From an uncultured Nitrososphaerota archaeon (GTDB taxonomy: Archaea; Thermoproteota; Nitrososphaeria; Conexivisphaerales; DTJL01), in the NCBI GenBank assembly GCA_963842885.1, contig CAWJIE010000005.1, positions 461,927-525,926 of the forward strand: a stretch of DNA of 64,000 bases, read 5' to 3'. Position numbers and translations under genes: made by a program. Every line of letters starts with the position of its first letter. Position 1 is the first letter of the stretch. The notes under the pieces were generated by a model, which did not search any database, had not been told where the DNA came from, and saw nothing but the letters and a program-made list of their open reading frames with translations. Of the stretch, positions 611 to 18,347 are shown in pieces.

Positions 611-621
611 AACATAAGATG

Positions 622-815: not shown

Positions 816-1157
816 CTATGCGTTTTCCTGTTCGATGCCGGCCGAGTCGCCATAGCCGCATCCGCAGGCCATCGTGTTCGTGAGCACGAAGTGCTTGTCT
901 TCGCCCTCTATAACAAGGTCGATCTCCGCTTGTTCAAGGACCTCCGCGGTCCGCTTGTCTGTCGGGACAAAGACATCTCTTCCGTTGAAGATCAAGTCAC
1001 CTCCGGGGACTTTGTCGACTAGGAACATGCAAAGTGCTAGGTTTACTTGGTCCGCCTGTTGCATGGAGAAACAGATTGCCTCGTACTTGCTTTCAGATAG
1101 CATTCCCTTAAATTTGTCTGTTTTTGCTTTATTAAGTGTAATAAGTGTAATACTTAC
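816..1157 (-). CDS. HesB/IscA-like (A-type Fe-S carrier fold) protein with an eroded N-terminus
   Basis: C-terminal ...DKRTAEVLEQAEIDL...FVLTNTMACGCG resembles IscA/HesB. The frame stays open upstream of the ATG at 1103 (VSITLITLNKAKTDKFKGM), resembling the ITLT..A..K N-terminus. Confidence 0.55.
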   Translation of the reverse strand, partial: VSITLITLNKAKTDKFKGMLSESKYEAICFSMQQADQVNLALCMFLVDKVPGGDLIFNGRDVFVPTDKRTAEVLEQAEIDLVIEGEDKHFVLTNTMACGCGYGDSAGIEQENA

Positions 1158-1219
1158 GAAGTTTGAGTTCGATTTGGTTTGATGTTAACTTTGTTTATTT
1201 TTTTGTTCTGTGATATTGT

Positions 1220-1232
1220 GTGCTTCCTAGTG
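1220..1232 (+). repeat. Polar motif GTGCTTCCTAGTG, copy 1
   Basis: Exact 12-mer shared with 2226, 2657 (rc) and 17206 (rc); C-poor tract on its 5' side. Confidence 0.9.
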
Positions 1233-1288
1233 CCCGAACCGAACGTCTCAAATAGCGCCAAAGCTCGCAATTCACCGGCCGAGATGGC

Positions 1289-2119
1289 TTGAGGAGGAAA
1301 ATCCGCGACTACGAAAGAGACCTTTGGGCACTGTTCTGGAGTTATTCCAATAGCGGCGAATTCAGCGAGATCCGGACTTACCTCCTCCAGCGCAGTGGAC
1401 TCCCCGGGCCCAGGGGAAACCTCGAGCTAGCAACTGCCTTCGGGAACGTCATTCAAAGAGGTGTCGTCTCTGGTGCCCTCGATTCCAAGGAACTCCTCTC
1501 GCTCTGTCAGAGCCTGTGCCAGATACCTCCCGCACTGGCACCCACAAACGATCCCAAGGAGTTCTTGGTGCTCTGCGGAACATGCGGGCTGGGAGCCCTC
1601 GGGACCGTGGCAGCAGATTTCCAAGCCGTCGCTTCCAGTCTGAGCTCCTTAGCCGGCGACCTAAGATGGAGAACTAGGGAGGGGGTTGCCATGGCCCTTC
1701 AGCGGATGATCGACGCAAAGCCAAAACAGACCCTAATGCTACTCGCCCAGTGGGTTGAAGTAAATGACCCCCTTCTCCTTCGAGCCGTCGTCGCGGGGGT
1801 GGCGGAGCCGAGGCTCCTCCGCAACGACGATGTAGCCCGGTCCGCCCTCGGGCTTCACCGGAGGATTTTCGAGAGGCTTTCGGAACTTGACCGCGAAGGC
1901 GACGACTTCAAGGCTCTAAGGAAGAGCCTCGGCTACTCTCTGAGCGTAGTCGTGGCTTCTTCGCCTAGGGAGGGCTTTGCTTTGATGAATGAGTTGGCTA
2001 GGAATGAGGATCATGATGTTATCTGGATAGTGAGAGAGAATTTGACGAAAAAGAGACTGGCGAAGTGCTTGGATAATTTGGATACTGTGAAGAAGATACT
2101 TTCAAGTAAGCAGGTTTAG
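1289..2119 (+). CDS. HEAT-repeat protein (DNA-alkylation-repair/AlkD-like alpha-solenoid)
   Basis: 276-aa helical ORF with SGLPGPRGNLELA, DLRWRTREGVAMALQ and DVIWIVRENLTKKRL HEAT-like motifs. Confidence 0.7.
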   Translation: MRRKIRDYERDLWALFWSYSNSGEFSEIRTYLLQRSGLPGPRGNLELATAFGNVIQRGVVSGALDSKELLSLCQSLCQIPPALAPTNDPKEFLVLCGTCGLGALGTVAADFQAVASSLSSLAGDLRWRTREGVAMALQRMIDAKPKQTLMLLAQWVEVNDPLLLRAVVAGVAEPRLLRNDDVARSALGLHRRIFERLSELDREGDDFKALRKSLGYSLSVVVASSPREGFALMNELARNEDHDVIWIVRENLTKKRLAKCLDNLDTVKKILSSKQV

Positions 2120-2225
2120 CCGTTGCATTGTGAAGTGTCTTCTACGTGTCTGGTCTCTTGTATATTGATTCTTTTGTGTTAATTTATTGAATTGGGTTTT
2201 GTTTATAGAGAAGGGTTGGTTGTGT

Positions 2226-2237
2226 GTGCTTCCTAGT
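2226..2237 (+). repeat. Polar motif GTGCTTCCTAGT, copy 2
   Basis: Exact match; only one C in the preceding 65 nt (2161-2225). Confidence 0.9.
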
Positions 2238-2430
2238 AGGAGGCTGGGCAGGGTGGCTCTGAGCTGCCTTGGTGTTGTCCATTAGAAGCGTTCTCGACCC
2301 AGCAGTCTGGGCAATCAAGCTCGGGTATTTGTCAAGCATGCAATGGGGATGCTTTAGGTGTTGAGCGCGATTTAGCCTGTCATCAGGGGGACCCGGTAAT
2401 CGGCGGCGTGCCTACGGGTCATCAGTCGGC

Positions 2431-2661
2431 GTGGACAACTTTATGTATCCAAGAAACGTGGTGTTGTCCGTGCCGCGACAGAATCTGATCAGGTGCCCTA
2501 AGTGCGATAGGCTGGCTTGGAACCCTGATATCGCTATCAGGACCGGTAAGAACCCCGAGAAGAAGTACAGCTACTACAGATACAGGCACCCTCTCGACAG
2601 GCGGACCGGCCGCAACAAAACGTGCTACGTCCCGGTCGTCAAGCCCGACCCCAACCACTAG
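2431..2661 (+). CDS. Small basic CxxC...H...C zinc-binding protein, 76 aa
   Basis: CPKC...YYRYRH...KTCYV; its TAG stop lies inside motif copy 3. Confidence 0.6.
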   Translation: MDNFMYPRNVVLSVPRQNLIRCPKCDRLAWNPDIAIRTGKNPEKKYSYYRYRHPLDRRTGRNKTCYVPVVKPDPNH

Positions 2662-2668
2662 GAAGCAC
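2656..2668 (-). repeat. Polar motif GTGCTTCCTAGTG, copy 3 (reverse orientation)
   Basis: CACTAGGAAGCAC on the + strand, followed by a G-poor tract. Confidence 0.9.
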
Positions 2669-2755
2669 CCCATCAAACCAACAACTGCTCTCAACACTCT
2701 TAACAATAAGAATTCGAATTTACATAAAAAGATTCTCCCTTATCAATATAACGTA

Positions 2756-3172
2756 TCATTTCCCTCGAAACGCATCAGCCTTACGCAACAAAATCTTTAT
2801 GTTTTCATAAATAGTTGCTCTCATAGCCTCTTCCAAGGTCATCCAAACGAAATCCCGGTGTTCATTCGAAATCTTCACGTTGACGCTGTCAGTATAACCC
2901 AGGTAATATCGTACAGATTTATGAACCTTAGCTCCCCCTGGCCGCAAGTAGAAGTAAGTAATTTTCTCCGCGAACCCGTCGACGAGCTTTATGTCAGGGA
3001 GGCCCGTTTCCTCCCTTGCTTCTCGGACCGCCGCGTTCAGCTCCGACTCACCAATTTCGATGTTGCCCTTGGGAAAGTCATACTTCGACTTGTCGTTTCT
3101 CAGCAATAGGTACTTGGTGACTCCATCCTGGGTATGGAAGACTACTACCCCAGCCGAACGCTCTTCGAGCAA
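2756..3172 (-). CDS. Nudix hydrolase, Ap4A hydrolase-like
   Basis: Nudix box PKGNIEIGESELNAAVREAREETGL; SAGVVVF and SNEH motifs. Confidence 0.9.
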   Translation of the reverse strand: MLEERSAGVVVFHTQDGVTKYLLLRNDKSKYDFPKGNIEIGESELNAAVREAREETGLPDIKLVDGFAEKITYFYLRPGGAKVHKSVRYYLGYTDSVNVKISNEHRDFVWMTLEEAMRATIYENIKILLRKADAFRGK

Positions 3173-3288
3173 TGGTCGAACAGCCAGATAGTACCGGAAT
3201 AGAACCTGACGCCGCTTTAAGCATAGTGTACAGGAAACGAAGCGTGGACTCCCCTACCGCCCGTCGTCAAACTCGCTGGATGCCATGC

Positions 3289-4919
3289 TCAGCGCCTCCG
3301 CTTCTTGTCCTTTTTCACCAGTGTTCGATCTTCGCCATCCAGGGGCTTGACGTCGATCCTCATGCCCAGAGACTCCTCGAGGCTCATTATGTTCTCCCCC
3401 TTCCTCCCGATGAGCCTAGGGATGGTCTCCCGGCCCACCCTGACGACGACCTTGTTGCCAGATAGCAGGTCGACTTCTGCGTTGGGGTCGTACTCCTTCA
3501 TCCTCGAAGCTATCTTGTCGAGGGCGAGCTTCTCCACGCCGGACGCCCTTTTCTTGGCGCCCTCGTCTTGGGTGATGGGGACTATCACGTTCTCTTCGCC
3601 GAAGGTGTATATTTCATGCGTGAGCCTCCCCGTTTCAAAGTCCCTGACCTCGACCAGGGGCCTGGCCAGGTCCTCCTCCACCATGCCCGTCGGGGTCCTG
3701 ACGACAAGGTTCAGATCCAGTACGGCTTGGATCTTCCCGGCCTTGACGAAGATGATCGTGTCGATGATGTGAGGTATCATCCCGAGCTCCACGCGTCCAA
3801 TGAAGCGCTGGACTGCGTCGACGGGCCCGCTGGCGTGGACCACCCCCACCATGCCCACCCCCGCCAGCCTCATGTCGGCGAAAACGGTGAAGTCGGAGGT
3901 CTTCCTCACTTCGTCATATATCGTGAAGTCGGGCCGGACGAGCAAGAGGATCTCCGCGGACTTCTCAAACTCGCCCTCCAGGGCGCCATACTGGGTGATA
4001 GCCGGTGGCACCTGAAGGTCCCTCGGGGACTCGAACGTCTTGACGATCTTCCCCTGCCTCATGTAGTACTCCGCGATACTCGAAGCCAATGTGCTCTTGC
4101 CGGACCCAGGGGGCCCTGCGATGATGACGCCTTCGGCCTTGTGGGCGAGCCTCTCCATGAGCTTCTCGGAGAGATTGTAGTCCTCCAGCGTAAGCTTCAC
4201 TATGGGTCGGACGATCGTTATCTCCACACCGTCGCTGAAGGGGGGCCTCGCCACCGCAATCCTGAAGTTCCCCAGCTGAGTAGACGCTGGCCCCGCTCAT
4301 CTTGAGTTCCTGGAAGGCGTCCCTGCTGACCCTGGAGGCCTCATGTATCTCGGTCTCAATCTCCTCCAGCTCCTCCCTGGTGAGGGGCTTCTCCCCTATC
4401 TTCACCAGCTCAAAGGCCCCTGGCCCGCCTCTCTTTGCCATGGGCACGACGTCCTCCTTCAGATGGACGCTGAGGGTCTTGGAGTCGAAATAGCTCTCGA
4501 ACTTCAGGTCCTTGGTCTTTATTGCCGGGCCGGAGATGCTTCACCTTCACTCCCTCGGCCTCGGCCGTCAGATAGAGGACGTAGTCGGCGGTGTAAAGGG
4601 TCCCGTTCACTTCACGGGCGACGTCCCGGATCATCCCGTCAATCCTTCCCTTCTTCGCCAACCTGATGTCGTCGAAGGAGGGCTTGGGACCGTAGAAGTA
4701 GAGCCTGTAGCCCTTTGACTCGCAGAAAAGGCGGATCTTCTTGAGCTCTGCCAGACCTATGAAACCCACGTTCACGTTTCTTGAAGCCTGTGCTTGAAGT
4801 TCGTCGAGGGCGGCGTAAGGGACGCAGACTTCGACGTCCTTTATCTCTCCGCTCTCAAGCGAGCGCCAGAAAATACCATCTATGATGGCGCTCGTATCCA
4901 GTACGGCAGTATCTGTCAT
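3289..4919 (-). CDS. PIN-domain ATPase with KH domain (PINA family); split by two frameshifts (~4500, ~4280)
   Basis: PIN VLDTSAIIDG (4410-4919 frame), middle segment (3965-4447 frame), Walker A GPPGSGKST and DEVR, then KH LIGRKG (3289-4254 frame). Confidence 0.9.
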
Positions 4920-5143
4920 ATGTTTTCTTCAAGTCTGACGTGAAAGTTCTGTGTATAATACCTTTCTGTCCGCTTTAGGACTCTGGTCCTCTTTCAGCCC
5001 CGTTCACTCTTAGGTGTGGCCTGCGGAAGGAGGCAGGCCAGTAAGGTCGTCAGGAGGTACGCCTTGGAATCCGAGAAAGTCATCGAAATGGAGGAATCTG
5101 AAATCAGATTGGCGCTCGAAGCGACATGCATCCTTGCTTGGAA

Positions 5144-6043
5144 CTAGAGGCCGATGATTACGTCCAAGGCTAGCACGCTGAACAGGAGGGCGAGGTAGGG
5201 GCCGGTGAACTTGAACAGGTCCCAGGCCATCTTCTCGGTGGGCTCCTTGATGAGCCAAAGGCTCATAGCCAGAAGAACGATGCTGAGCACCGAACCCACG
5301 ACGGCAGCGGATACACCGAACGGAGAACCCGGGAGGAATGGAAGGATGGCCGTGAACGCGGCAAGGAGGATTGACGTGTACGCTATGCAGCGTATTCCGG
5401 TCTTGACACCGAGGGACACGGGGAGCATGGGTATGTCGGCCCTGCCGTAGTCGTCCTTGAACCTGACGGCGAGGCTCCAGATGTGCACTGGAGTCCACAG
5501 GACCACCAGGGCCGCCAGGACAATCGACGTCCAGTCGACGAACCCTTTGATGGCGACGTACCCCACGAAGGCTGGAATCCCGCCGCTTGGAGCCCCAAGG
5601 ATGATGTTCCAGGCGGTCTTCCTCTTCGTTAGGAGGTTGTAGACAACGATGTTGTCGATGAGTCCCAATCCGAGGTAGACCGGGAGGAGCGCGCCCATGG
5701 GAAATGAGAGGACCAGTCCGGCGACGATGAGCCCACCGCCGTATACCAGAGCGTTTCTGGCCGGCATGGTGTTCCTCGGAAGCGGGCGCTGCTGGGTCCT
5801 GTGCATCAAGGCGTCGATATCCCTGTCAATGAAGTTCGTGACCGAACGGGCGCCGGCTGAGCAGAGTGCCGTCGCAAGGGTGATGGCCACGACCTGCAGG
5901 GGCTTGTTCATTCCACCCGCTACCAGGGCAGACGTCGCCGCAGTGAAGGCGAGCAGGTAGACGATGTTCGGATTTGTGAGCTGTACGTAGTCGCGAATCA
6001 AGCCTTGGCCTCCAGAAGGGTCGTCCCAAGAACTATGTGCCAT
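5144..6043 (-). CDS. cyoE: Protoheme IX farnesyltransferase (heme o synthase)
   Basis: NFIDRDIDALMHRTQQRPLP, WTPVHIWSLA, DDYGRADIPMLPV; likely ATG at 6043. Confidence 0.93.
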   Translation of the reverse strand: MAHSSWDDPSGGQGLIRDYVQLTNPNIVYLLAFTAATSALVAGGMNKPLQVVAITLATALCSAGARSVTNFIDRDIDALMHRTQQRPLPRNTMPARNALVYGGGLIVAGLVLSFPMGALLPVYLGLGLIDNIVVYNLLTKRKTAWNIILGAPSGGIPAFVGYVAIKGFVDWTSIVLAALVVLWTPVHIWSLAVRFKDDYGRADIPMLPVSLGVKTGIRCIAYTSILLAAFTAILPFLPGSPFGVSAAVVGSVLSIVLLAMSLWLIKEPTEKMAWDLFKFTGPYLALLFSVLALDVIIGL

Positions 6044-6484
6044 TCTATATAACAATTGTGAACGACTATGCTCCTGTTCGTCGAGCTTCCGAATCCGAAT
6101 GACTTCCGAGAGGGTATTCCGCGGTCTGGGGAACCATGGTGCATTGCACTTCAAATACGCCGACGCAGCGGGAGATTCCTCCGACTTGGGAAGGGAAAAA
6201 CTATATGGCGACCCCCACTTTCTGTCACTACGGCGATGAAGCGAGCTGGTATTTCTGACCCATGATGAATGACATCAGTGCTGAGCCAATCAACGCCCTC
6301 GTTCCAAAGCATAAATGACACATAGGGAGGATATTTTCGTTTGCGGCTGTTTCAATCAGTGGCATTGGGCCTGATGCTCGCCACATCATTCGGCCTCTTG
6401 TAGGTCCTTACTGCGATGATGGCAATCTCGACGGCTCTCCTCATCACCTATGGGGCACGGATCATCAACCTGTTCTTGGCCTGA

Positions 6485-7561: not shown

Positions 7562-7603
7562 CCACGGAGCTAGTATAGATCAATAGGTGCAAAGGTCAAG
7601 GAT

Positions 7604-7629
7604 TATCTTACTCGATATCGAGTAAGATA
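7604..7629. repeat. Perfect 26-bp palindrome TATCTTACTCGAT|ATCGAGTAAGATA
   Basis: Read directly; lies between convergent thyX and methyltransferase genes. Confidence 0.9.
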
Positions 7630-7767
7630 CGGGTAGAAATTTGGACCGAGAGTGATTTCTCCCAGCTGGTGGACGCAAGCGGGCTCATGATTGTCTTCGG
7701 CAAGGCGTGCCACATCCACAGGTTTTAGTCGCCAGTCAAGAGCCCTCCCGAAGAATGAGCACCAGGC

Positions 7768-8922: not shown

Positions 8923-9026
8923 AGGCCGACCACCGCTTCACAGTACTGCTCCAGCGGCCAAGCTCCTCGTTAAGGAGCATCAGCCTTAAATATGGAAATT
9001 ACCACTTCCTGCGCAGGTATTTGCAA

Positions 9027-10077: not shown

Positions 10078-10438
10078 TCGTTTCAGAACATCCGATAAGC
10101 GTCGCCATGCGGCCAAACCGAGCCCATCTGAGCACTTTTCGGTACGGAATGCGTCCACCGAGGGACCGTTGGGACTGGCGGTGAAGAACTATCCACTCTG
10201 GACGAGCCGGCAGGAATTATCCATTCTAGGAAACCAAGAAGAACCCCGTTCAATAATTTGACTGAGTCAATATCGCACGGATTGTGCTCAACACCCAAAG
10301 AGTCTCCATTACCTGCCAGGGGCTACTGCACGCATGGTTCCCCGCTAAGCCTGAACTCAGGGAAGTTGTCCACTGTGCAACAACACCGCCGGCATCGCCA
10401 ACTGATGTTTTAATACTAGGCGAATCGTCTTTCGACTC

Positions 10439-10969: not shown

Positions 10970-11040
10970 GCGGTGACGCAATGAGAGCGTCATGCCCCAA
11001 TCGACTTATACCCGCTGACGGTTGCCCCCAGTAGGCTGAA

Positions 11041-13917
11041 TTGAGCACTAAGCGCGGCGTCGAAGGGGTATTCAGGAGCTTCACTCCGGCGATAGTGGAG
11101 CTGCTCATAGAGGGGAACATCCTGAAGCCCACGCCGCCTCAGGTGGAGGCCATCCCCCTGATCTCCTCTGGCAGGAACACTTTGGTCGTCTCCCCAACGG
11201 GATCCGGCAAGACGGAGGCCGCCATCCTCCCCATCCTGGATATAATGGTGAGGGGCTCGGTGCAGTCGAAACGGGGGGTCCTCCTCCTCTTCATCACCCC
11301 GCTGAGGGCTCTCAACCGTGACCTCCTCGACAGGATGACGCGCTGGTGCAAGACCCTCGACATTCGGCTGGCCGTAAGGCACGGAGACACGGAAACCGCG
11401 GAAAGGAGGACGCAGACCATGGCGCCCCCGCACGTCCTCATCACCACGCCGGAGACCCTGGAGGTCCTCCTCGTCGCTAAGGTATTCAGGGAGCACCTTA
11501 GGAGCCTGCGTTGGGTCGTGGTGGACGAAATACACGAGCTCGCCACCGACAAGCGGGGCACGCAGCTGGCCGTCGCCCTGGAGCGCCTAAGAAGGCTCAC
11601 GGATGCGGACTTCCAGCGCATCGGATTGTCCGCCACCGTCGGCGATCCCGAGAAGGTCGCCAACTTCCTTGTGGGCCCAGGTAGGGAATGCTCCGTCGTC
11701 AAGACGCCGGTGGCCAAGCTTTTCAAGTTCGAGGTCCTCTACCCGGAGGCGAGCAAACAGGACTCGGCCATGGCTGACAAGATGATGAGCCACCCGGACG
11801 TGACCGCCAGGCTGAGGACCATGCTGCGCCTCATCGAAGAAGGGCCCCTCCTCATCTTCACCAACACCAGGACCGAAGCTGAAATCCTGACAAGCCGGCT
11901 CAGGCAGTGGAGTCCCCGCATAGCGATAGCCGTCCACCACGGGAGCCTCTCTCGGGCCTCCAGGTCAAAGGCTGAAGAGGACCTGAAGTCGGGCCGATTA
12001 AAGGCCGTTGTATGCACCAGCAGCCTCGAGCTGGGCATTGACGTGGGCCTGTTGAACCTCGTCATCCAATATAACTCTCCGAGACAGGTCGTTCGGCTCA
12101 TACAGCGTGCTGGGCGGAGCGGCCACACTCTGGAGAGGACCAGCAGGTGCGTAGTCATCTGCCAGGACGCCGACGACGCCCTAGAGGCTGCGGTGGTAGG
12201 GAGGAGGGCGAAGGAGGAGCTTCTCGAAGAACCCGTCATCCCCATGCTGTGCAGCGACGTGCTGGTGCAGCAGCTCTCTGGCCTGCTCATCGAATCCGGC
12301 AGGCTGGAGACGAGCGATGCACTTTCCCTATTCAGGAGGAGCTTTCCATTCACCCAGCTGAACGAGCGCGACATCAGGGAGGCCGTCGACTACATGGCGA
12401 TGCTCAAGCCTCGTCTGGCAAGGGCTGCGGGGGATGACATCGCCCGACCTTCGGACAACCGCGGCCTTTTCACGTATTATTTCGACAACCTCACCATGAT
12501 CCCTGAGCACCGGCAGTACCCCGTCATCACCGAAAAGAAGGAGGCGGTGGGGCTCCTCGACGAGGAGTTCGTGTCGGAGCACGGCGAGATAGGGAAGAAG
12601 TTCATCCTCAGGGGGAGCGTCTGGAGGATAAACCAGGTTTACAACTCCAAGGTCTTTGTCGAGGAAGACGACGACCCGATGGGAGCCATCCCGAGCTGGG
12701 TGGGCGAAGAGATACCCGTGCCCACCGAGGTCGCAATGGAGGTCGGGAGCCTCAGGGGCCTGGCCCCGAGAGCCGAGTCGGAGGGGAAGCACCTCTCTGC
12801 GCTCTGCGAGGAGCTGGCCGCCCGGTACCCCATGAGGGAGGAGGGGTTCAAGAGATCCCTCTCCTCCGCCGTCCAGCAGCTGAAGATGGGTCTGGCTCTT
12901 CCGTCAGACTTCACGATCACGGTCGAACAGTGGAAGGAGCTCGTCATCATAGTGACCCACAGGGGGCTCAAGGCGAACAGGACGCTGGGTCGACTGCTTT
13001 CATACAGATGCTCTTCGGTCCTGGGGAAGCCCGTCAGCGTCAACCAGGACGCATACAGGATATTCCTGGAGGGCAAGACGCTCACCTGCGAATCCGTCAA
13101 GGACGCCCTCGGCTATCTGGCAGAGAGCGACCTCGTGTCCTATGTGACCGCCGCCTGCGAAGACACGGGCCTCTTCCGGAGGAGGTTTGTCCACGTCGCT
13201 CGTAAGATGGGCGTCCTCTCGAGAGACGCAGAGCTAACGAGCTCCCTGGTCAAGCAGCTCGTCGAGACCTACAAGGGCTCCCTCCCGTACAGAGAGGCCT
13301 GGAGGACCTTCCTCCAAGAGGACTTGGATTCGAGAGAGACCAGCGCCCTCCTCGCAGGGCTCGCCTCAGGCAGGATCGCCGTCGAGCTGCTGGGCCGGCT
13401 GGCTGAGCCCAGCCCCATCGCCATGATAGGGCTCGAAGAGATGTCCCGCAAGGGCGAGGTGATGGATCCGGCAAAGATGAAGCGGCTCCTCCTCGAGTCG
13501 GCCAGGTCCAGGGTGCTCAACGGAAGGACCATCCTCGTCTGTCCCAACTGTTGGAACTACGTCGAAGAGAAGTACGTCGTCGACCTTCCCGAAAGGATCT
13601 CCTGCCCCCTGTGCAAATCCGACAGGGTGGCATCGTCCTACCGCGAACTTGAAGAGATGCAGGACCTGGCCAGAAAGGTGCGGAGCCGCACGAGCCTCTC
13701 CAGAGGGACGCTGAGACACAAGAAGGAACTGGAGGGAAGCTCGCGCCTAAATTCGACCTTCGGATCCATGGGAGTAAAGGCCCAGGTCTTCAACGTCGCC
13801 CTCGCACGGCTGGCCGAGATGCTCGCCAGGGCCCCAGGGAACGAAGACGACCTCCTCCTCGCTCTGATGGAGGAGGAGAGGAAGACGTACTTGAAGCGCT
13901 TCGTGGGCTCTAGGTAG
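11041..13917 (+). CDS. lhr: Lhr-family SF2 helicase with C-terminal Zn ribbon
   Basis: SPTGSGKT, ITTPETL, DEIH, GLSAT, HHGSLS, SLELGIDVG, QRAGRSGH; CPNC..CPLC. Confidence 0.93.
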   Translation: MSTKRGVEGVFRSFTPAIVELLIEGNILKPTPPQVEAIPLISSGRNTLVVSPTGSGKTEAAILPILDIMVRGSVQSKRGVLLLFITPLRALNRDLLDRMTRWCKTLDIRLAVRHGDTETAERRTQTMAPPHVLITTPETLEVLLVAKVFREHLRSLRWVVVDEIHELATDKRGTQLAVALERLRRLTDADFQRIGLSATVGDPEKVANFLVGPGRECSVVKTPVAKLFKFEVLYPEASKQDSAMADKMMSHPDVTARLRTMLRLIEEGPLLIFTNTRTEAEILTSRLRQWSPRIAIAVHHGSLSRASRSKAEEDLKSGRLKAVVCTSSLELGIDVGLLNLVIQYNSPRQVVRLIQRAGRSGHTLERTSRCVVICQDADDALEAAVVGRRAKEELLEEPVIPMLCSDVLVQQLSGLLIESGRLETSDALSLFRRSFPFTQLNERDIREAVDYMAMLKPRLARAAGDDIARPSDNRGLFTYYFDNLTMIPEHRQYPVITEKKEAVGLLDEEFVSEHGEIGKKFILRGSVWRINQVYNSKVFVEEDDDPMGAIPSWVGEEIPVPTEVAMEVGSLRGLAPRAESEGKHLSALCEELAARYPMREEGFKRSLSSAVQQLKMGLALPSDFTITVEQWKELVIIVTHRGLKANRTLGRLLSYRCSSVLGKPVSVNQDAYRIFLEGKTLTCESVKDALGYLAESDLVSYVTAACEDTGLFRRRFVHVARKMGVLSRDAELTSSLVKQLVETYKGSLPYREAWRTFLQEDLDSRETSALLAGLASGRIAVELLGRLAEPSPIAMIGLEEMSRKGEVMDPAKMKRLLLESARSRVLNGRTILVCPNCWNYVEEKYVVDLPERISCPLCKSDRVASSYRELEEMQDLARKVRSRTSLSRGTLRHKKELEGSSRLNSTFGSMGVKAQVFNVALARLAEMLARAPGNEDDLLLALMEEERKTYLKRFVGSR

Positions 13918-14479
13918 AAGGTTGTGAGGCGTCTATGCGCTTCGAAAGTATGGAGGTGAGGAGCTCGTCCCTGTCTATCTCCACGCGGCTCCTCCACCCG
14001 ACCCGGATGAAGTCGCCATCTTCCTCCAGGTAGCCCAGGCGCACGAGCTTGTTCATGATCTGCTGAACGCGCCACGCTGGAAGCTTCTCCTTGATGGTGT
14101 CCTCAAGGAGGCGCTTGGGGGCCGAGCCCGCACGCACGAAGAGCTGGCTCAAGAGGATGGCCAGGCTCGCCGCCTCCTCCATCCTGAGCCATCCGCCAAG
14201 CTCCCTGTCCTTCAGGGGCGCCTTGGTCACCAGCACGTAGCGGGCCTTGTCCGGATCCTTCTCGTCTTCCTCGTCGGGCACCGCGACGAGCTTCAGGCCG
14301 AATTCCGAGGCCAAAGAGTCCGTCAGCTTGAGGACGTCAAGGTAGCTCCTCCCGAGGAGGCGCTTGAGCTCCCAACCTTTGAGACCAGGCTGGAAGTGGC
14401 GCTGGTAGAGCAGTGTCGTAAGGCCCTTCAGGGCCTTCTCTTTGAGCTCTTGCGTGTCCTTGTTCTGTTCTTGTGTCAC
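13910..14479 (-). CDS. Kite-type tandem winged-helix subunit (ScpB / Nse1-Nse3-MAGE-like)
   Basis: Third gene of the SMC operon; RYVLV, LAILLSQLFV, GYLEE..IRVGWRSRVEI recall Nse1/3 winged-helix motifs; likely GTG at 14479. Confidence 0.6.
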   Translation of the reverse strand: MTQEQNKDTQELKEKALKGLTTLLYQRHFQPGLKGWELKRLLGRSYLDVLKLTDSLASEFGLKLVAVPDEEDEKDPDKARYVLVTKAPLKDRELGGWLRMEEAASLAILLSQLFVRAGSAPKRLLEDTIKEKLPAWRVQQIMNKLVRLGYLEEDGDFIRVGWRSRVEIDRDELLTSILSKRIDASQPST

Positions 14480-14484
14480 CCATC

Positions 14485-15213
14485 TCACCCCAATGAAATC
14501 GCAACGGACCTGTCTACTTTGCCCTCCGCAGGCGTTATGAGATAGTCCGAAGTGGACGGGTCGTAGCGGAGGGCGAACGCTCCCCTCATGCACAGGTGGG
14601 CAAGAGAGTAGGTCTCCTTGAGCTTCTCCGCCCCCTGGAAGCCGCCCGCGAACTCCTTGAAGAGAAGAGGACCTTCGGCAAGCCTCCGGCTGACCCTGAG
14701 GAATGTGGACCGGAGGCACTTTTCAAGCTCCTCGGGGTCCATCCTTATGGATTCATAGGCGGTCCCTTCGTCCGCTGGTCCCAGCGGCCCCAGCCGGCCT
14801 AAAGAACCCCACCCGTAGAGCTGCACCCAGTAATCGGCGGCCTCGAGCAGCCTCGAGGTGGGCATCAGCTTCGCAGCGGCCGGGGGATGGTGCGCCTCCC
14901 CCAATGCCCCCGCTATGTCCGAGACGCTGAGAGACATCAGCTTGGAGATGAGAAGGCCCGGGTCCACCTGGAAGGTCGTCAATTGGAAGGTGAGCCATTC
15001 GTCCTGCAGGCCGACGACCTTGCTGACCGCGTTGATGGCCTGGGCGTCGGCGAGGAGGTCTTGCCTCTCCAGCTCCTTGAGGCCCTTCTTTAGCCTCCTC
15101 AGTATGGGCTTGACCTCCACCATGAAGGGATCTCCTCCCTGGTCCTTGAGGTCCTCAGGGAGCGAAGCCACCCTGAGCCTGTACTCCTTCGCGTCACTCG
15201 ACTTTGCTGACAC
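14485..15213 (-). CDS. Kleisin (ScpA/Nse4-like)
   Basis: DPFMVEV N-terminal kleisin-like motif, C-terminal winged helix (ETYSLAHLCMRG); overlaps the SMC gene. Confidence 0.6.
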   Translation of the reverse strand: MSAKSSDAKEYRLRVASLPEDLKDQGGDPFMVEVKPILRRLKKGLKELERQDLLADAQAINAVSKVVGLQDEWLTFQLTTFQVDPGLLISKLMSLSVSDIAGALGEAHHPPAAAKLMPTSRLLEAADYWVQLYGWGSLGRLGPLGPADEGTAYESIRMDPEELEKCLRSTFLRVSRRLAEGPLLFKEFAGGFQGAEKLKETYSLAHLCMRGAFALRYDPSTSDYLITPAEGKVDRSVAISLG

Positions 15214-17122
15214 CCTTGGCCACCTTGATCTGCGAAGCCGTAGCCACCTTCTGGACCATTATGTAGTGAGCAGACTCGTCATAGAAAGCCGGCGAGCCGG
15301 GCGTTATGACCAGATACTGCACCGACCTGTCCGCCTTGAAATAGTCGTGGATGGCCCTGATGAAAGTCTCGCGGCTGGACGGGTCCATGTGGACGTCGAA
15401 CTCGTCCACGGCCCTGAACGGCGAGATGATGTGCTCTTGGAGGGCGAACAGGAAAGCGGTAACGGCCGAGCTCCGCTCGCCTCCGCTCTGTGTGTACGCG
15501 TCCAGCGGGACCAAGTCCTGTCCCCTGAAGGCCACTTGGAGCTCGAGGCCCGCCCTGAGGGGGTCATCCTCCCCAACTACCCTCACCCTTCCGCTACCGC
15601 CGATCAGGGACAGCATCTTGCCGTAGCTTTCGTTGACCCCGGAGATGAGTTCGTCCAGCTGCTTGCGCCAGACCTTGAACCTCTCGTTGACCTCCTCCAG
15701 GGTGGCCTCCTTGTTCTCCTTCAACTCGTCCAGCTTCCCGGAGAGATCCTGTATCCTGATCTGGAAATCGCGATAAATCTGCTCGGCCTCCTGGGGGATG
15801 TCGCCCAGCTGGACTAGCTGCGCTTCGTCCACCTTGATGGCAAGCTGGATGTCGCCCAGGCTCCTCGTAGAGGTCACTCTGAGGCCAAGGGCTTCCGCGG
15901 CCGACTTCGCCGCCACCAGCTCTTCTTGCGACGAAACCTGCAAACCTTCAAGGGTCTTCAGCTCCCTCTTCTTCTCCTTGAGGCGATAGTCCAAGACAGC
16001 GACCTTCTCTCTTGACACGGCGTATGCCTCTACCTTGGCGGGGAATCCCGAGCTCTCCGCACCCAGCCCTCTTTCGACGGAGGAGATCTCGTCCTCCAGC
16101 GTCTTGACTCTTCCCTGTCCAGAGCTCAACACCTTCTCTACCTCTTCGGCAAGGTCCTTCGAAGCGTCCTGCAGCGCTGCCTTCAAAGAGCCGTAGGACG
16201 AAGAATCATGCTGAATCGTTAGCAGGTCACCTCGCAGCCTGGACAGGCTCCTCTCTCCCTTGAGCAGCGATTCTAGGGCTTCGGTGATGGCCTTGGCTCG
16301 TTCCTGAACGTCTCCCTGCCCTTCCCCCAGCTTCGTCGTCATCTCAGCGATCGTCGATTCGGCCTCCCTGATGCGCTGGGCGATGGAGGTAAGCTTCTCC
16401 TCCTCTCTAGAGACCCTGCACCACACCTCTTCAAGCCTGAACCTGGTGAGCTCTTCGCGTAGACCCTGGATTTTCACACTCTTTTCATAGTTCTCCTGCC
16501 AGCGAGCCAACGTGGTCTTCGCAGTCTCCAGCTCCTTCTTCTTCTCCTCTTCCTCGGTCAGAATGGAATCGAGCCTGCCTTTGGCCTCCAGCAGGCTCGC
16601 CCTGTACGAGGCCAATCCGGCGGCATCCTCGACAAGGGCCAGCTTCTCTTCAGGCCTGACGACACTGAATGTGTCTCCAAGGCCTTGATGCATCATTATG
16701 AGCATGTTGTCCGGGTTGAGGCCGAGCTTGCCCAGCGTTTCGACGACCGCCTGCTTGTCAGCCTCCTTGAAATCGATCTCGAACCAGTATGTGCCATCCT
16801 TCCGGATGTACCTCGAGAGGTGAATCGTGTCGGCCCTGTAAGGGAGGGGCCTTTTGCCATTGACGGGAGAGTTATCAAGGAGAAGCGTAACCCTGGAAAT
16901 GTCCCTGCCTCTCTTGACCAGGTCGCTGAGCTTCCTCGACCTCTCGGTCGAGGCTTGGCCCAAAGCGACAGATATGCCAATCAGAATGCTTGACTTCCCC
17001 GCGCCATTTGGGCCCATGACTACGTTGAGGCCAGGCTTGAGCATGACTCGGCCATAGTCGTAGCTAAGGAAGTTCTCGAGGATGACCTCCTTGATGAATG
17101 CCCGGCCCTCCCCTTTCTCCAA
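15194..17122 (-). CDS. Short SMC-family ATPase (Smc5/6- or ClsN-like), 642 aa
   Basis: LENFLSY, Walker A GPNGAGKS, Q-loop MHQG, coiled coils, signature QSGGERS, Walker B FRAVDEFDVHMD. Confidence 0.88.
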   Translation of the reverse strand: MEKGEGRAFIKEVILENFLSYDYGRVMLKPGLNVVMGPNGAGKSSILIGISVALGQASTERSRKLSDLVKRGRDISRVTLLLDNSPVNGKRPLPYRADTIHLSRYIRKDGTYWFEIDFKEADKQAVVETLGKLGLNPDNMLIMMHQGLGDTFSVVRPEEKLALVEDAAGLASYRASLLEAKGRLDSILTEEEEKKKELETAKTTLARWQENYEKSVKIQGLREELTRFRLEEVWCRVSREEEKLTSIAQRIREAESTIAEMTTKLGEGQGDVQERAKAITEALESLLKGERSLSRLRGDLLTIQHDSSSYGSLKAALQDASKDLAEEVEKVLSSGQGRVKTLEDEISSVERGLGAESSGFPAKVEAYAVSREKVAVLDYRLKEKKRELKTLEGLQVSSQEELVAAKSAAEALGLRVTSTRSLGDIQLAIKVDEAQLVQLGDIPQEAEQIYRDFQIRIQDLSGKLDELKENKEATLEEVNERFKVWRKQLDELISGVNESYGKMLSLIGGSGRVRVVGEDDPLRAGLELQVAFRGQDLVPLDAYTQSGGERSSAVTAFLFALQEHIISPFRAVDEFDVHMDPSSRETFIRAIHDYFKADRSVQYLVITPGSPAFYDESAHYIMVQKVATASQIKVAKGVSKVE

Positions 17123-17204
17123 CGCCGCCTATCCGCTAAGAAGACAGGTAATAAACCGTTTGCCATCCTACTTAGTTGACAACCGCCTAGATGTGGCTGA
17201 CCGA

Positions 17205-17220
17205 CACTAGGAAGCACACA
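17205..17220 (-). repeat. Polar motif TGTGTGCTTCCTAGTG, copy 4 (reverse orientation), upstream of the SMC operon
   Basis: CACTAGGAAGCACACA on the + strand, followed by 30 nt with no G (17221-17250). Confidence 0.9.
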
Positions 17221-17381
17221 CCAAAACAACTCCAAAATTCAACAACAACTATGCGAATGGAACCCAGAGCAAGAGAAGCTAACAGAACTCATGAAGCGGT
17301 AGAAAGAAGCACAAATGCCGACCCTAACCATAAGGCCCCAGTGCCCAAGAAACAAGACGGCCGCCGCACCTGTCGGCTCTC

Positions 17382-18347
17382 TCAACTTGGAGAGTTTTCA
17401 ATCTTTTTCGCGAACGACTCCAACTCATCTGCTGTGGGGCTTCCTCTCGTGTCTCTGTGTGTCGCCTTGAAGCTCCCCGCATAGTTGGCGAGCATCAGGG
17501 AGTCCTCCGGCGAGCGACCCAAGACGATCTGGACGGCGAAGCAGCCAATAAAGGCGTCGCCGCAGCCCACGGTGTTCACCGCTTTCATGCCCAGGGCGGA
17601 GAGGTCCACCCCAGCCACCTCCTCCTCGATGCCGGGTCCCAGCATGATTGCTCCGTTCCTCCCTCTCGTCACCACTAGCTTCAACTCCTCCTGGAAATTG
17701 CTGAGCTCCCGGTATGCGGCCGCTAGCGTCGAAGCCCCGGCCAAGTTCATGACCTCGGCCTCGTTGAGTACAAGGTAGTCTACGTACTTCAGCAGCTTGG
17801 TCACGGCCGCAGCCCCCTTGAGGGTGCGCACGCCGGGCGCCCACAGCCGCGGGATAGGACGCCTCGACGCGGTCCAAAGGAGGGCATGAGTGAAGTCCAA
17901 CGGCGTGTCCATCACTACCAAGAAGCGTATCGTGTTGAGGACCTGTTTGACGCCCGGACTCTCAAGGAGGGTTGGCTTCAGGGAGGCGTTCGCTCCGAAG
18001 TAGGTGTTGATGGCGTTCTGGCCCCCGTCATCTATGAGGATGTATGCTTGGCCGGACTCCACGTTCTTGAGCCTGACCAAGCCTCGCACGTCCACCCGCT
18101 CCTTCTTGAAGATGTCAAGCTGCCAGTCGCCCACGGCGTCCGCACCGAGGGCTCCGATAACGCCGCTGGTGGCTGGCTTCAGTAGCCGCGCCATCGCCAC
18201 CGCGACGTTCGCGGCCTTCCCACCGGGGACGCGGGTTATGCTCTTCACAGGCATCTCCTCCCCGCCCGCGGGGATCCTTTCTAGGAAAAGGTTGACGTCC
18301 GCGTTGATCGCCCCGGCAGCTGCGGCAAGAGGGCCGTAGTCCTTCAA
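17382..18347 (-). CDS. PfkB/ribokinase-family carbohydrate kinase
   Basis: PGGKAANVAVA, LNEAE, VNTVGCGDAF. Confidence 0.9.
   Translation of the reverse strand: MKDYGPLAAAAGAINADVNLFLERIPAGGEEMPVKSITRVPGGKAANVAVAMARLLKPATSGVIGALGADAVGDWQLDIFKKERVDVRGLVRLKNVESGQAYILIDDGGQNAINTYFGANASLKPTLLESPGVKQVLNTIRFLVVMDTPLDFTHALLWTASRRPIPRLWAPGVRTLKGAAAVTKLLKYVDYLVLNEAEVMNLAGASTLAAAYRELSNFQEELKLVVTRGRNGAIMLGPGIEEEVAGVDLSALGMKAVNTVGCGDAFIGCFAVQIVLGRSPEDSLMLANYAGSFKATHRDTRGSPTADELESFAKKIENSPS

What the first reader, a model, noticed from the sequence alone, without database searches (positions are those of the whole stretch)
1104..17480. Polar GTGCTTCCTAGT motif with a one-sided, strand-specific C-to-T footprint: candidate undescribed site-directed mutagenesis or ssDNA-exposure system
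Seen: the exact 12-mer occurs four times (1220 +, 2226 +, 2657 -, 17206 -). On the strand reading GTGCTTCCTAGT, the 200-300 nt 5' of the motif are depleted of C while G is retained; normal high-GC sequence resumes right after the 3' side. Hand counts: 1 C in 2161-2225; 2 C in 1171-1219; 3 G on + in 2669-2730; 0 G on + in 17221-17250. The effect enters genes. The last 47 codons of the HEAT gene (1979-2119) have 16 NNT vs 2 NNC and TTG x5 vs CTG x1, but keep GAG/AAG. The Nudix and PfkB 3' ends shift the same way. At copy 1 the affected gene lies on the opposite strand, so the bias follows motif orientation, not transcription. Inference: a protein binding this site repeatedly leaves one strand single-stranded or deaminates it (polar fork barrier, Chi-like resection stop, helicase/SMC loading or nicking site, or a targeted deaminase). 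I do not recognise it as a described element.
Basis: partly seen in the sequence, partly recalled or inferred. Interest (0 to 1): 0.93.

Follow-up and report, generated by a model that had tools for sequence, protein, structure and literature searches.

The report
Polar 12-mer with one-sided cytosine loss
A strictly conserved, direction-dependent 12-14-base DNA word found only a handful of times in one genus of soil archaea is bordered, on one side and one strand only, by DNA that has lost nearly all its cytosines; this probably marks a spot where that strand is often single-stranded, possibly during replication.

Summary
All four copies and all hand counts are exact. The whole 2.03 Mb genome has only five exact copies, all within 24 kb. 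Each has 0-5 C in the 50 nt on its 5' side; 0.39% of genome windows are that poor. The HEAT gene's last 150 nt hold the fewest C of 1277 long ORFs. The tracts are not homologous to each other and overlie sequence orthologous to normal genes. The PfkB 3' end is not shifted.

The motif (extended G-K-GTGCTTCCTAGT) sits at the same intergenic spots in three same-genus genomes and in none of 36 more distant relatives. It co-occurs exactly with the HEAT gene. The footprint varies by lineage: 4 of 12 relatives' copies show none.

The + + + | - - orientation is centred on a switch in strand composition. That switch has the same polarity as the one at this genome's canonical ORB/cdc6 origin. It is not seen in relative G003.

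Best reading (about 0.4): a polar protein-bound site whose 5' flank is recurrently single-stranded, probably linked to replication. The mechanism is unproven.

The parts
1220..1231 (+). Motif copy 1 (GTGCTTCCTAGT; preceded by G-T). It lies between the IscA-like gene (-) and the HEAT gene (+), 57 nt before the HEAT start.
   Evidence: same site in G002 and G003
1104..1219 (+). C-depleted, G-retaining tract 5' of copy 1. It has 6 C in the last 100 nt. It is intergenic and ends at the start codon of the opposite-strand gene.
2226..2237 (+). Motif copy 2, 106 nt after the HEAT stop codon.
   Evidence: syntenic in G003 and G004, 1-mismatch copy in G002
1976..2225 (+). C-depleted tract 5' of copy 2 (22 C in 250 nt, with an abrupt onset). 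It covers the last 47 HEAT codons and the 3' intergenic DNA.
2657..2668 (-). Motif copy 3, after Nudix. It overlaps the stop codon of the small Zn-ribbon gene on the other strand.
2669..2960 (-). Tract 5' of copy 3 on the minus strand. It is C-poor on the minus strand (G-poor on plus), grading out over about 300 nt. It includes the last ~50 Nudix codons (C3 9, T3 17).
17206..17217 (-). Motif copy 4, between PfkB and the SMC-like gene, 83 nt upstream of the SMC-like start.
17218..17262 (-). Short C-poor tract 5' of copy 4 (0 C in the first 25 nt, 5 in 50). Next to it, G000 has a 73-nt deletion relative to G002, G003 and G004.
1289..2119 (+). HEAT/ARM-repeat gene flanked by direct motif copies 1 and 2. 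Among 41 relatives it is found only in the four motif-bearing genomes.
2467..2661 (+). Small Zn-ribbon protein gene (64 aa from the conserved GTG; ORF callable from 2431). It lies between inverted copies 2 and 3. It is a paralogue of a gene 15 kb away that weakly matches PF13408.
2756..3172 (-). Nudix hydrolase gene whose 3' end lies in the copy-3 tract.
816..1103 (-). IscA-like gene. Its promoter region is the copy-1 tract.
17382..18347 (-). PfkB kinase gene upstream of copy 4. Its 3' end is not compositionally shifted.
15194..17122 (-). SMC_N/Rad50-like ATPase gene downstream of copy 4.

Best explanation
GKGTGCTTCCTAGT is the recognition site of an as yet unidentified, orientation-dependent DNA-binding factor. 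The ancestor of this Conexivisphaerales genus acquired it, probably together with the HEAT gene.

The site marks a sharp boundary. On its 5' side the motif-bearing strand spends unusually long periods single-stranded. There its cytosines are lost, mainly by deamination to uracil and then T. G on the same strand, and everything 3' of the site, stay normal.

I think the single-strandedness is most likely linked to replication. The copies point away from a centre between copies 2 and 3. The tract strand is the one that would be the leading-strand template for helicases or forks moving from each motif into its tract. That polarity matches both the local and the replichore-scale asymmetry around this genome's canonical ORB/cdc6 origin. 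The locus would then be an origin-like or helicase-entry/egress locus.

Shown: the motif, its exclusivity, conservation and polarity; the extreme one-sided composition; its independence from gene direction; and the coincidence with a composition switch in G000.

Inferred: protein binding, single-strandedness, deamination, and any role in replication.

Odds: about 0.4 for the core (polar bound site plus a mutational ssDNA footprint), and about 0.25 for the origin-like version specifically.
For: 1. Specificity. There are five exact copies and no enrichment of near-copies. All 17 copies in four genomes are identical, and position -2 is always G. This argues for strict sequence recognition.

2. 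Extremeness and sharpness. See the window fractions, the HEAT 3' end ranking 1 of 1277, and gene 3' ends genome-wide not being C-poor.

3. A mutational look.
- In the -50 bin, C+T stays about 0.5 while G and A are unchanged, in G000 and more weakly in relatives.
- Both GC and TA skews are positive.
- Nearly all non-obligatory C are gone from HEAT synonymous sites (C3 3 of 50, against 22 of 50 just upstream).
- Tract sequence is not conserved; only its composition is.

4. The coding coincidence. Copy 0 arises from a conserved VCFLV peptide. The C count in the preceding 50 nt follows match quality: G000 exact 4-5; G002, mismatch at the first base, 6-7; G003, 1 internal mismatch, 10-11; G004, 2 mismatches, 11-13. 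This suggests the motif causes the flank.

5. Independence from transcription.

6. Replication link.
- The canonical origin (three ORB cores plus cdc6 at C4:345.9-346.2 kb) lies at a sharp maximum of cumulative GC skew. It is also at the maximum of gene-orientation-corrected third-position keto skew (345,271).
- The motif cluster lies at the contig-wide maximum on C5: cumulative GC 461 kb, keto 469 kb, corrected 460,024.
- Gene-orientation-independent asymmetry has the same sign on each side.
- The canonical origin also has a ~450-nt flank with only 5-11 G against 12-22 C per 50 nt, in the same polarity.
Against: - The composition switch is seen only in G000. Naive odds of a contig maximum falling within the 23.5-kb cluster span are about 4.5%. 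G003, whose 172-kb contig carries the same cluster, shows no maximum there.
- No ORB cores, no orc1/cdc6 and no other initiator gene lie at the locus.
- The AT-rich tracts lie outside the inverted pair, not between them. The centre is about 55% GC.
- Copies are spread over 24 kb.
- Four of 12 copies in relatives have no footprint. One of these, G003 post-PINA, has the same composition as the two motif-less orthologues that were scored, G000 and G002.
- Polarised C losses in HEAT go to T, G and A at 7:5:4. In that coding stretch A rises more than T. Pure deamination does not predict this.
- The HEAT protein is a generic alpha-solenoid with no DNA-binding relative detected. 142 loci of distant homologues were scored for repeats flanking the gene, and few have any.
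Confidence: 0.4

Rival explanations
1. Selected composition. The G+T-rich, C-free flank is itself a functional part of the element. It could be a platform for a protein that binds G/T(U)-rich single strands, an unstructured or R-loop-prone 3' region, or an easily melted zone. In this reading C is removed by selection rather than by a local mutation bias.
For: - A G/T-rich 20-50 nt flank accompanies most copies in all four genomes.
- C losses in HEAT go to T, G and A alike, and A rises in the coding part.
- The tracts are stable between two strains that are about 97% identical.
Against: - Purging almost every synonymous C over 250 nt would need selection on each individual site.
- No sequence motif is conserved inside the tracts.
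- No consistent RNA fold is predicted (z-scores -2.4 to +0.4).
- Four of 12 copies in relatives lack the flank yet keep the motif.
- In intergenic bins, G and A are untouched and only C is exchanged for T.
Confidence: 0.2
2. Polar barrier. A protein bound at the motif blocks machines that arrive from the tract side. These could be replication forks (leaving a lagging-strand-template gap) or RNA polymerases (giving queues and R-loops, as at roadblock terminators). The blocked machine leaves the motif strand single-stranded upstream.
For: - The boundary is sharp and one-sided.
- Tract lengths of 50-300 nt are of Okazaki-fragment scale.
- Copies 2 and 3 and G003's post-PINA copy follow co-directional genes.
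- Three G003 copies are followed directly by T5-T7 runs.
- The copies form two opposed groups, like Ter sites.
Against: - The orientation would keep forks out of the 430-bp centre (a fence) rather than trap them.
- The large-scale asymmetry has the polarity seen at the origin, not that expected of a terminus.
- Copy 1, and the post-PfkB copy in relatives, have no co-directional gene upstream.
- Genome-wide, gene 3' ends show no such composition.
- In the one archaeon studied for this (Sulfolobus), termination is by random fork collision (abstract of PMC3020120).
Confidence: 0.15
3. Recombination or nicking site. The motif is an att-like or nickase target left by cassette or element insertion (HEAT, and the Zn-ribbon gene duplicate). 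Repeated nicking of the complementary strand, followed by 5'-3' resection, exposes the motif strand on its 5' side.
For: - Direct copies flank HEAT. In G003 they also flank Nudix.
- HEAT and the motif were gained together.
- The Zn-ribbon paralogue weakly resembles a serine-recombinase zinc ribbon (E 3e-4, below the family cut-off).
- Variable insertions lie just 3' of the post-PfkB copy in G002 and G004.
- Divergence between G000 and strain L145 jumps from 1.8% to 5.4% at copy 3.
Against: - Gene order is identical in all four genomes, with no shuffling.
- No recombinase, integrase or HUH nuclease was found among the 20 ORFs scanned in window 443-20643.
- The insertions in G002 and G004 begin 20-45 nt away from the motif, not at it.
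- The tracts overlie orthologous coding sequence, so they are not inserted DNA.
Confidence: 0.1
4. Targeted deaminase. An enzyme recruited to the motif deaminates cytosines processively on one strand.
For: The cytosine loss is strand-coordinated and clustered, with sharp borders.
Against: - The only PF00383 deaminase-family hits in the genome are an ordinary 137-aa gene on C4 and fragments near an AT-rich end of contig C2. None is near the locus.
- Two UDG genes are present.
- The C-loss spectrum is not clean C-to-T.
- No deaminase domain was found in the 20 local ORFs.
Confidence: 0.04
5. Chance, or foreign AT-rich DNA that happens to lie next to a conserved regulatory word.
For: Three other C-poor tracts in the genome are plain AT-rich DNA at contig ends.
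Against: - Joint probabilities are of order 1e-12 for five flanks with C<=5.
- The tracts are orthologous to normal genes.
- The asymmetry (G .29-.32, C .06-.09) is unlike that of any AT-rich genome.
- 62 loci in viral contigs hold the 14-mer by chance, and 61 copies could be scored. Their flanks average C 9.8 and G 12.0. Only 4 of 61 are C-poor, all in low-GC contigs.
Confidence: 0.02

Closest known systems
Archaeal replication origins (ORB/mini-ORB elements with a DNA-unwinding element, bound by Orc1/Cdc6)
   Same: - Polar repeated recognition elements occur in opposed orientation around a centre, with AT-rich, easily melted DNA beside them.
- The locus lies at a strand-composition switch of the same sign as this genome's own ORB/cdc6 origin. 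That origin also has a strongly strand-skewed flank.
- New origins are thought to arise by capture of foreign elements (recalled: Robinson and Bell 2007; cited in PMC12999951, passages seen).
   Different: - The locus has no ORB sequence and no adjacent initiator gene.
- The AT-rich tracts lie outside the inverted pair.
- Copies are spread over 24 kb.
- The switch is not seen in G003.
ucm element and its binding protein UBP at Sulfolobus origins (PMC12141716; abstract and passages read)
   Same: It is a short (11 bp), asymmetric, lineage-restricted non-ORB element. A small protein binds it as a monomer and acts on MCM egress.
   Different: - The sequence is unrelated.
- ucm has more than 300 genomic sites, whereas this motif has five.
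- No flank composition effect is described in the passages I read.
Tus-Ter and RTP-Ter replication fork traps of bacteria (reviews listed; details recalled)
   Same: - The sites are non-palindromic and strictly conserved, act in one orientation, and are arranged in two opposed groups.
- The terminator protein gene lies beside the innermost sites. Compare the small Zn-ribbon gene between copies 2 and 3.
- An arrested fork leaves a single-stranded gap on one template strand.
   Different: - If the footprint marks the arrest side, this arrangement would exclude forks rather than trap them.
- The large-scale skew has origin polarity, not terminus polarity.
- I did not search for Tus or RTP homologues.
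Roadblock terminators that double as polar fork barriers (Reb1/Nsi1, TTF-I Sal boxes, mTERF). Recalled from memory, not from any call.
   Same: - They combine an orientation-dependent protein site with a T-rich element immediately upstream.
- Copies lie downstream of a gene, plus one upstream of its promoter.
- mTERF is a helical-repeat protein.
   Different: - Two sites here have no co-directional transcription unit upstream.
- The HEAT protein shows no specific similarity to mTERF in the PDB fold search.
Strand asymmetry of vertebrate mitochondrial DNA and its D-loop/TAS region. Recalled from memory.
   Same: The magnitude of C loss on one strand is comparable, and it is attributed to time spent single-stranded. 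A conserved termination-associated word bounds a three-stranded region.
   Different: That asymmetry is genome-wide in mtDNA. Here it is confined to 50-300 nt beside five sites. There is no A-to-G component here.
Diversity-generating retroelements (variable region ending at an IMH word). Recalled from memory.
   Same: The 3' ends of genes are altered up to a conserved boundary word, with a variable 5' extent.
   Different: - DGRs are adenine-specific and need a homologous template repeat and a reverse transcriptase.
- The tracts here are C-specific and mutually non-homologous.
- No reverse transcriptase is among the local ORFs.

Membership tests
Archaeal oriC (ORB/Orc1-Cdc6 type) | Cluster of ORB or mini-ORB elements | tested here: not met
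   ORB-like cores cluster only at C4:345.86 kb (three within 1.5 kb). None is at the motif locus.
Archaeal oriC (ORB/Orc1-Cdc6 type) | Initiator gene (orc1/cdc6 or whiP) adjacent | tested here: not met
   The two Cdc6_C hits are at C4:344.7 kb and C3:234.2 kb. None is among the 20 ORFs of window 443-20643. whiP/Cdt1 was not searched for specifically.
Archaeal oriC (ORB/Orc1-Cdc6 type) | AT-rich unwinding element between opposed recognition elements | tested here: not met
   The 430 bp between copies 2 and 3 are 53-56% GC. The AT-rich tracts lie outside the pair.
Archaeal oriC (ORB/Orc1-Cdc6 type) | Switch of strand-composition asymmetry at the site | tested here: inconclusive
   Met in G000, with the same sign as at the canonical origin. 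Not seen in G003:C17. The motif-less G005 has no switch at the syntenic place.
Archaeal oriC (ORB/Orc1-Cdc6 type) | Replication initiates there (marker-frequency peak) | not testable with these tools
Tus-Ter / RTP-Ter fork trap | Polar, non-palindromic conserved sites in two opposed groups | tested here: met
   The arrangement is + + + - - in G000 and G003, with analogous arrangements in G002 and G004.
Tus-Ter / RTP-Ter fork trap | Orientation lets forks enter but not leave; sites lie in the terminus | tested here: inconclusive
   If the footprint marks the arrest side, the orientation is the reverse of a trap (inference). The composition switch has origin polarity by the C4 calibration.
Tus-Ter / RTP-Ter fork trap | Tus or RTP family protein present | not tested
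   No search was made. None of the 20 local ORFs hit such a family at the thresholds used.
Diversity-generating retroelement | Reverse transcriptase, homologous template/variable repeat pair, adenine-specific change | tested here: not met
   No RT among the local ORFs. The tracts are not homologous. The change concerns C.
MITE / IS / inserted AT-rich element | Copies share a homologous body; insertion relative to orthologues | tested here: not met
   Pairwise tract alignment scores lie within or near the shuffle range. The highest is 16, against a shuffle maximum of 15, for one pair of ten. The tracts cover orthologous HEAT and Nudix codons.
Integron-like cassette array / att sites | Adjacent recombinase; variable cassette order between genomes | tested here: not met
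   No recombinase in the local ORFs. Gene order is the same in four genomes. There is only a weak sub-threshold Zn_ribbon_recom hit in the paralogue.
Known RNA families (Rfam) | Match to a covariance model over motif or tract | tested here: not met
   Within 1-20000 the only matches, all below gathering score, are C/D-box models at 6229-6286. No tRNA is present.
Chi-like recombination hotspot | Frequent, genome-wide, co-oriented with replication | tested here: not met
   There are only five copies, all within 24 kb.

The most novel reading that the evidence does not exclude
The locus is a lineage-specific replication origin, or a helicase entry/egress locus, that uses a previously unknown polar 14-nt recognition element and an unknown factor instead of ORB/Orc1. 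Candidate factors are the co-acquired HEAT-repeat protein, the 64-aa Zn-ribbon protein between the inverted copies, and the ORB-less second Cdc6. Repeated unwinding at the locus has left a readable deamination footprint on the leading-strand template beside every element. If so, single-strand exposure at archaeal origins could be read directly from sequence. It would also be a fresh case of origin birth by gene capture in an uncultured soil archaeon.
Probability: 0.22. Interest if true: 0.8.

Novelty: new variant of a known kind. Interest (0 to 1): 0.62.

Why it matters
Local, strand-specific base decay this extreme is very rare in prokaryotic chromosomes. C falls from about 27% to 0-6% on one strand, stops exactly at a 14-nt word, and enters genes.

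If it records recurrent single-strandedness at a polar protein site, it gives a sequence-only read-out of a DNA transaction in an uncultured archaeal lineage. That transaction could be origin firing, helicase egress or fork pausing. The case also points to an unknown site-specific factor, and it shows how much such a process can reshape the ends of ordinary genes.

Archaea have no described fork barriers, and only a few non-ORB origin elements are known. Either replication reading would therefore be new for the domain.

If the flank is instead a selected feature, it defines a new kind of bipartite element: a strict word plus a C-free strand.

Tried and rejected
- **RNA gene or structure.** Rfam found nothing at the sites, and there is no tRNA. 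Folds around the five copies share no structure (z -2.4 to +0.4). Rejected.
- **C/D-box guide complementary to the motif.** The 9-10-mer complements found elsewhere are scattered. The single 'guide plus CTGA' case is the leader of a tRNA gene. Rejected.
- **Promoter or terminator consensus.** The scan is of bacterial type and found nothing at the tracts. It is uninformative for archaea.
- **Typical terminator composition.** Gene 3' ends genome-wide are not C-poor. Rejected.
- **Other C-poor tracts sharing a boundary word.** The three others are plain AT-rich contig ends. Rejected.
- **HEAT protein as a recognisable DNA binder.**
  - No Pfam or NCBIfam hit and no PDB sequence hit.
  - The model is confident (pLDDT 95.9), but only generic ARM/HEAT matches appear, at TM about 0.3.
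  - 160 loci of distant homologues were scanned for the motif, and none outside this genus has it.
  - 142 of them were scored for flanking repeats, and few have any.
  - Unresolved rather than rejected.
- **Second Cdc6 as a genus-specific partner.** It has orthologues across the family. No special co-occurrence.
- **Virus or plasmid origin of the word.** 62 single chance hits in viral contigs, without the footprint. Rejected.
- **Polarising substitutions.** With the three same-genus genomes the sites are saturated and the result is ambiguous. The near-identical strain L145 cannot be polarised.
- **Footprint at a copy against motif-less orthologues (PINA 3' end).** There is no difference between G003 and G000/G002. 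The script stopped before G004, which is therefore not scored.
- **Replication of the skew switch.** Absent in G003.
- **Literature.**
  - The motif string and its complement occur in one unrelated paper.
  - Searches on archaeal fork barriers, deamination/R-loop skew and origin capture turned up no description of such an element.
  - Listings and abstracts were seen for all of these. Passages were read only in PMC12141716 and PMC12999951.
  - Supplementary files were not consulted.

Full report
**Setting.** The window is G000:C5:461927-525926 of a 2.03 Mb, 11-contig assembly. The closest named records for its genes are Conexivisphaerales archaeon MAGs. C/D-box-like sRNA matches and Cdc6 genes also indicate an archaeon.

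**Checking the observation.**
- GTGCTTCCTAGT occurs at 1220+, 2226+, 2657- and 17206-.
- The whole genome holds only one more exact copy, at C5:455692+, 6.2 kb upstream of the window. All five therefore lie within 24 kb.
- One-mismatch copies number six. That is chance level against 30 shuffled words, and none has a C-poor flank.
- The 50 nt 5' of the five copies contain 4, 3, 0, 3 and 5 C, with 10-16 G. Only 0.39% of all strand-specific 50-nt windows have C<=5.
- The 250 nt before copy 2 (22 C), and the 100 nt before copies 1 and 3 (6 C each), fall in the 1e-6 to 1e-5 tails.
- Of six tracts genome-wide with C<=4 and G>=12 per 80 nt, three abut the motif. The other three are ordinary AT-rich contig ends.
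- Averaged over the five copies, the last 50 nt have C .06, G .29, A .19, T .46. The first 50 nt after the motif have C .26, G .33.
- The HEAT gene's last 50 codons have third positions C3, T17, G24, A6, against C22, T10, G13, A5 in the 50 codons before. Its last 150 nt contain 13 C, the fewest among 1277 long ORFs; the next lowest is 21.
- Gene 3' ends and their downstream DNA are not C-poor genome-wide.
- Two details do not hold. The PfkB 3' end is normal. The copy-4 tract is only about 25-45 nt long.

**What the tracts are not.**
- They are not copies of one another. Ten pairwise local alignments score like composition-matched shuffles.
- They are not inserted DNA. They cover codons orthologous to HEAT and Nudix of related genomes.
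- They match no Rfam family.
- They share no predicted fold.

**The motif in relatives.**
- Among 40 other genomes of the class, exact copies occur only in three of the four other same-genus genomes, with 3-5 copies each. None occurs in 36 genomes of other genera. The fourth, G001, is 59% complete.
- The copies occupy the same intergenic spots:
  - after Nudix, usually as a tandem pair;
  - after HEAT;
  - before HEAT;
  - after PfkB;
  - in G003, also after the PINA ATPase gene.
- All 17 exact copies share an invariant G at -2 and G/T at -1, so the word is effectively 14 nt.
- The sister genus (G005) has the same gene neighbourhood without the motif.
- The HEAT gene is found in exactly the four motif-bearing genomes of 41. 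Its next relatives are at 47-51% identity or less, in other phyla. HEAT and the motif were therefore probably gained together.
- The fifth G000 copy is a coding coincidence. It encodes the conserved peptide VCFLV of a CoxM-like gene. The orthologues carry 1-2 mismatches to the word.
- The C count in the 50 nt before that site falls with match quality: 4-5 in G000, 6-7 in G002, 10-11 in G003 and 11-13 in G004. This is a small hint that the word causes the flank.

**How general the footprint is.**
- It is strongest in G000 (5 of 5 copies) and G002 (4 of 4).
- It is weaker in G004 and G003.
- Four of 12 copies in relatives show none.
- At G003's post-PINA copy, the gene's 3' end is no different from the motif-less orthologues in G000 and G002 (G004 was not scored because the script stopped).
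- Nudix shows the third-position C-to-T shift in several lineages. Last 50 codons, C3/T3: G000 9/17, G003 7/21, G002 10/12, G004 14/12. The rest of the gene is about 20/6.
- A metagenome contig about 97% identical to G000 (L145) keeps both central motifs and both tracts. It carries a CAG-to-TAG change that shortens HEAT by two codons.

**Mutation or selection?**
- For mutation:
  - In intergenic bins only C is exchanged for T, while G and A stay put.
  - GC and TA skews are both positive, as expected from C deamination.
  - Almost every synonymous C is gone.
  - No sequence is conserved inside the tracts.
- Against a pure C-to-T process:
  - With the three distant outgroups, C losses in the HEAT tract go to T, G and A at 7:5:4, against four gains of C.
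  - In that coding stretch A rises more than T.
  - The outgroups are 59-65% identical in protein, so saturation limits this test.

**Relation to transcription.**
- Copies 2 and 3 follow co-directional genes.
- Copy 1 lies upstream of the opposite-strand IscA-like gene. Its tract ends at that gene's start codon.
- In relatives, the post-PfkB copy lies beside the start of an opposite-strand small ORF. G000 has destroyed that ORF by a 73-nt deletion.

**Relation to replication.**
- The genome has one canonical origin. At C4:345.86-346.2 kb, next to a cdc6 gene, there are three ORB-like cores (TTTCCACTGGAAA and variants) and AT-rich DNA.
- That origin sits at a sharp maximum of cumulative GC skew (346 kb). 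It is also at the maximum of a gene-orientation-corrected third-position G+T excess (345,271).
- In this genome an origin is therefore a maximum, the reverse of the bacterial convention.
- Around that origin the asymmetry is independent of gene strand. The right flank of the ORBs has a ~450-nt zone with only 5-11 G against 12-22 C per 50 nt.
- On contig C5 the same measures peak at the motif cluster: cumulative GC skew at 461 kb, G+T excess at 469 kb, and the corrected index at 460,024. The cluster spans 455.7-479.1 kb, with its core at 463.1-464.6 kb.
- Genes left and right of the cluster show orientation-independent asymmetry of the same sign as at the origin, at roughly one third to equal strength.
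- The tracts themselves have that polarity: C-poor on the top strand to the left, and on the bottom strand to the right.
- The + + + | - - orientation thus points away from a centre between copies 2 and 3. The tract strand is the one that would be the leading-strand template for forks or helicases leaving that centre.
- Caveats:
  - This rests on one contig. A contig maximum would fall in the 23.5-kb span by chance about 4.5% of the time.
  - G003's 172-kb contig with the same cluster shows no maximum there. The motif-less G005 shows none at the syntenic place.
  - The locus has no ORBs or initiator gene.
  - Its AT-rich DNA lies outside the inverted pair.
  - The second cdc6 gene (C3:234 kb) lies in a broad minimum without ORBs and is family-wide, not genus-specific.

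**Candidate factors.**
- The HEAT protein folds confidently (pLDDT 95.9). It is only a generic alpha-solenoid, at TM about 0.3 to designed armadillo proteins and importins.
- The small gene between copies 2 and 3 encodes a Zn-ribbon protein. A paralogue 15 kb away gives a sub-threshold match to the zinc ribbon of serine recombinases.
- Neither protein is shown to bind DNA.
- No deaminase gene is near the locus. Two UDG genes exist elsewhere in the genome.

**Verdict.**
- The finding is genuine and statistically extreme. It concerns a genus-specific, strictly conserved polar word.
- I did not find it described. I searched for the motif string and ran three topic searches.
- My best reading is a polar protein-bound site whose 5' flank is recurrently single-stranded on the motif strand, so that it loses cytosine. 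I give this core reading about 0.4.
- The cause is most likely linked to replication and origin-like in polarity. I give that specific version about 0.25.
- The rivals are:
  - a selected C-free flank (0.2);
  - a barrier to incoming forks or polymerases (0.15);
  - a nick or recombination site (0.1);
  - a dedicated deaminase (0.04).
- None of these can be settled without read-depth, ssDNA or binding data.

Noticed in passing
G000:C4:345,850-346,250 (outside the window; locus L285:4846-5240): This is the canonical replication origin: ORB-like elements (CCCC-N-TTTCCACTGGAAA and shorter cores) beside a cdc6 gene, with AT-rich DNA. It sits at the maximum, not the minimum, of cumulative GC skew, so skew polarity is the reverse of the bacterial convention. 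The surrounding 10 kb are only 42-50% GC, against 58% for the genome.
   Followed up: partly
G000:C3:233,380-234,522 (locus L286:4381-5526): A second Orc1/Cdc6 gene has no ORB cluster nearby. It lies in a broad minimum of the corrected skew profile. Orthologues are 91% identical within the genus and about 50% in sister genera.
   Followed up: partly
window 3289-4919, minus strand: The PINA-type Holliday-junction ATPase appears as two ORFs: a PIN domain at 4410-4919 and an ATPase+KH part at 3289-4254 matching profile positions 225-537 of 613. A third ORF overlaps the gap. This may be a frameshift, an assembly error or a genuine split.
   Followed up: no
window 17250-17380, compared with G002, G003 and G004: The relatives carry a small opposite-strand ORF between PfkB and the motif. 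It begins MCCGNSAELYEKMREWE in G002 (my own reading of the aligned DNA, not a tool translation). G000 has lost its start through a 73-nt deletion and has a premature stop.
   Followed up: partly
G002:C57:2841-3479 (locus L123): A ~565-nt insertion lies between the post-PfkB motif and the SMC-like promoter. It carries a 198-aa opposite-strand ORF with no Pfam hit. G004 has a different ~250-nt insertion at the same place.
   Followed up: partly
window 15194-18347 against G002:C57: PfkB and the SMC-like protein are 92-93% identical between G000 and G002. HEAT, Nudix and CoxM are only 64-76% identical. This suggests a recently exchanged block.
   Followed up: no
window 1778-3242 against metagenome contig L145: Divergence between the two strains is 1.8% left of motif copy 3 (16 differences in 891 nt) and 5.4% right of it (31 in 574 nt). 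L145 also has a 32-nt C-poor segment in the copy-2 tract that G000 lacks, plus a 1-nt insertion nearby (33 gap columns in all). The 32-nt segment is flanked by GTGTCT repeats.
   Followed up: partly
window 2272-2280, 2432-2440 (inverted) and 2461-2469: The 9-mer GTGTTGTCC occurs 9 times in the genome, and 2 of those are here. Together with the inverted GGACAAC it brackets the TATA-like TTTATG of the small Zn-ribbon gene. The pattern is conserved in G002 and G003 and is probably an operator. A second conserved block, AATGGGGAT-N-CTTTAGGTGTTGAGCGCGAT, lies at 2343-2372.
   Followed up: partly
window 6229-6286, plus strand: A C/D-box sRNA-like match (sR1, 28.3 bits, below the gathering score of 45).
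   Followed up: no
G000:C2:4,500-6,700 and C3:575,400-575,520: Strongly AT-rich stretches lie near contig ends. C2 also has deaminase-family fragments at 10.8-11.1 kb. These may be foreign or misbinned DNA.
   Followed up: no
whole genome G000: CTAG is under-represented (observed/expected 0.43), as is TTAA (0.48). The conserved CTAG inside the motif therefore stands out.
   Followed up: no
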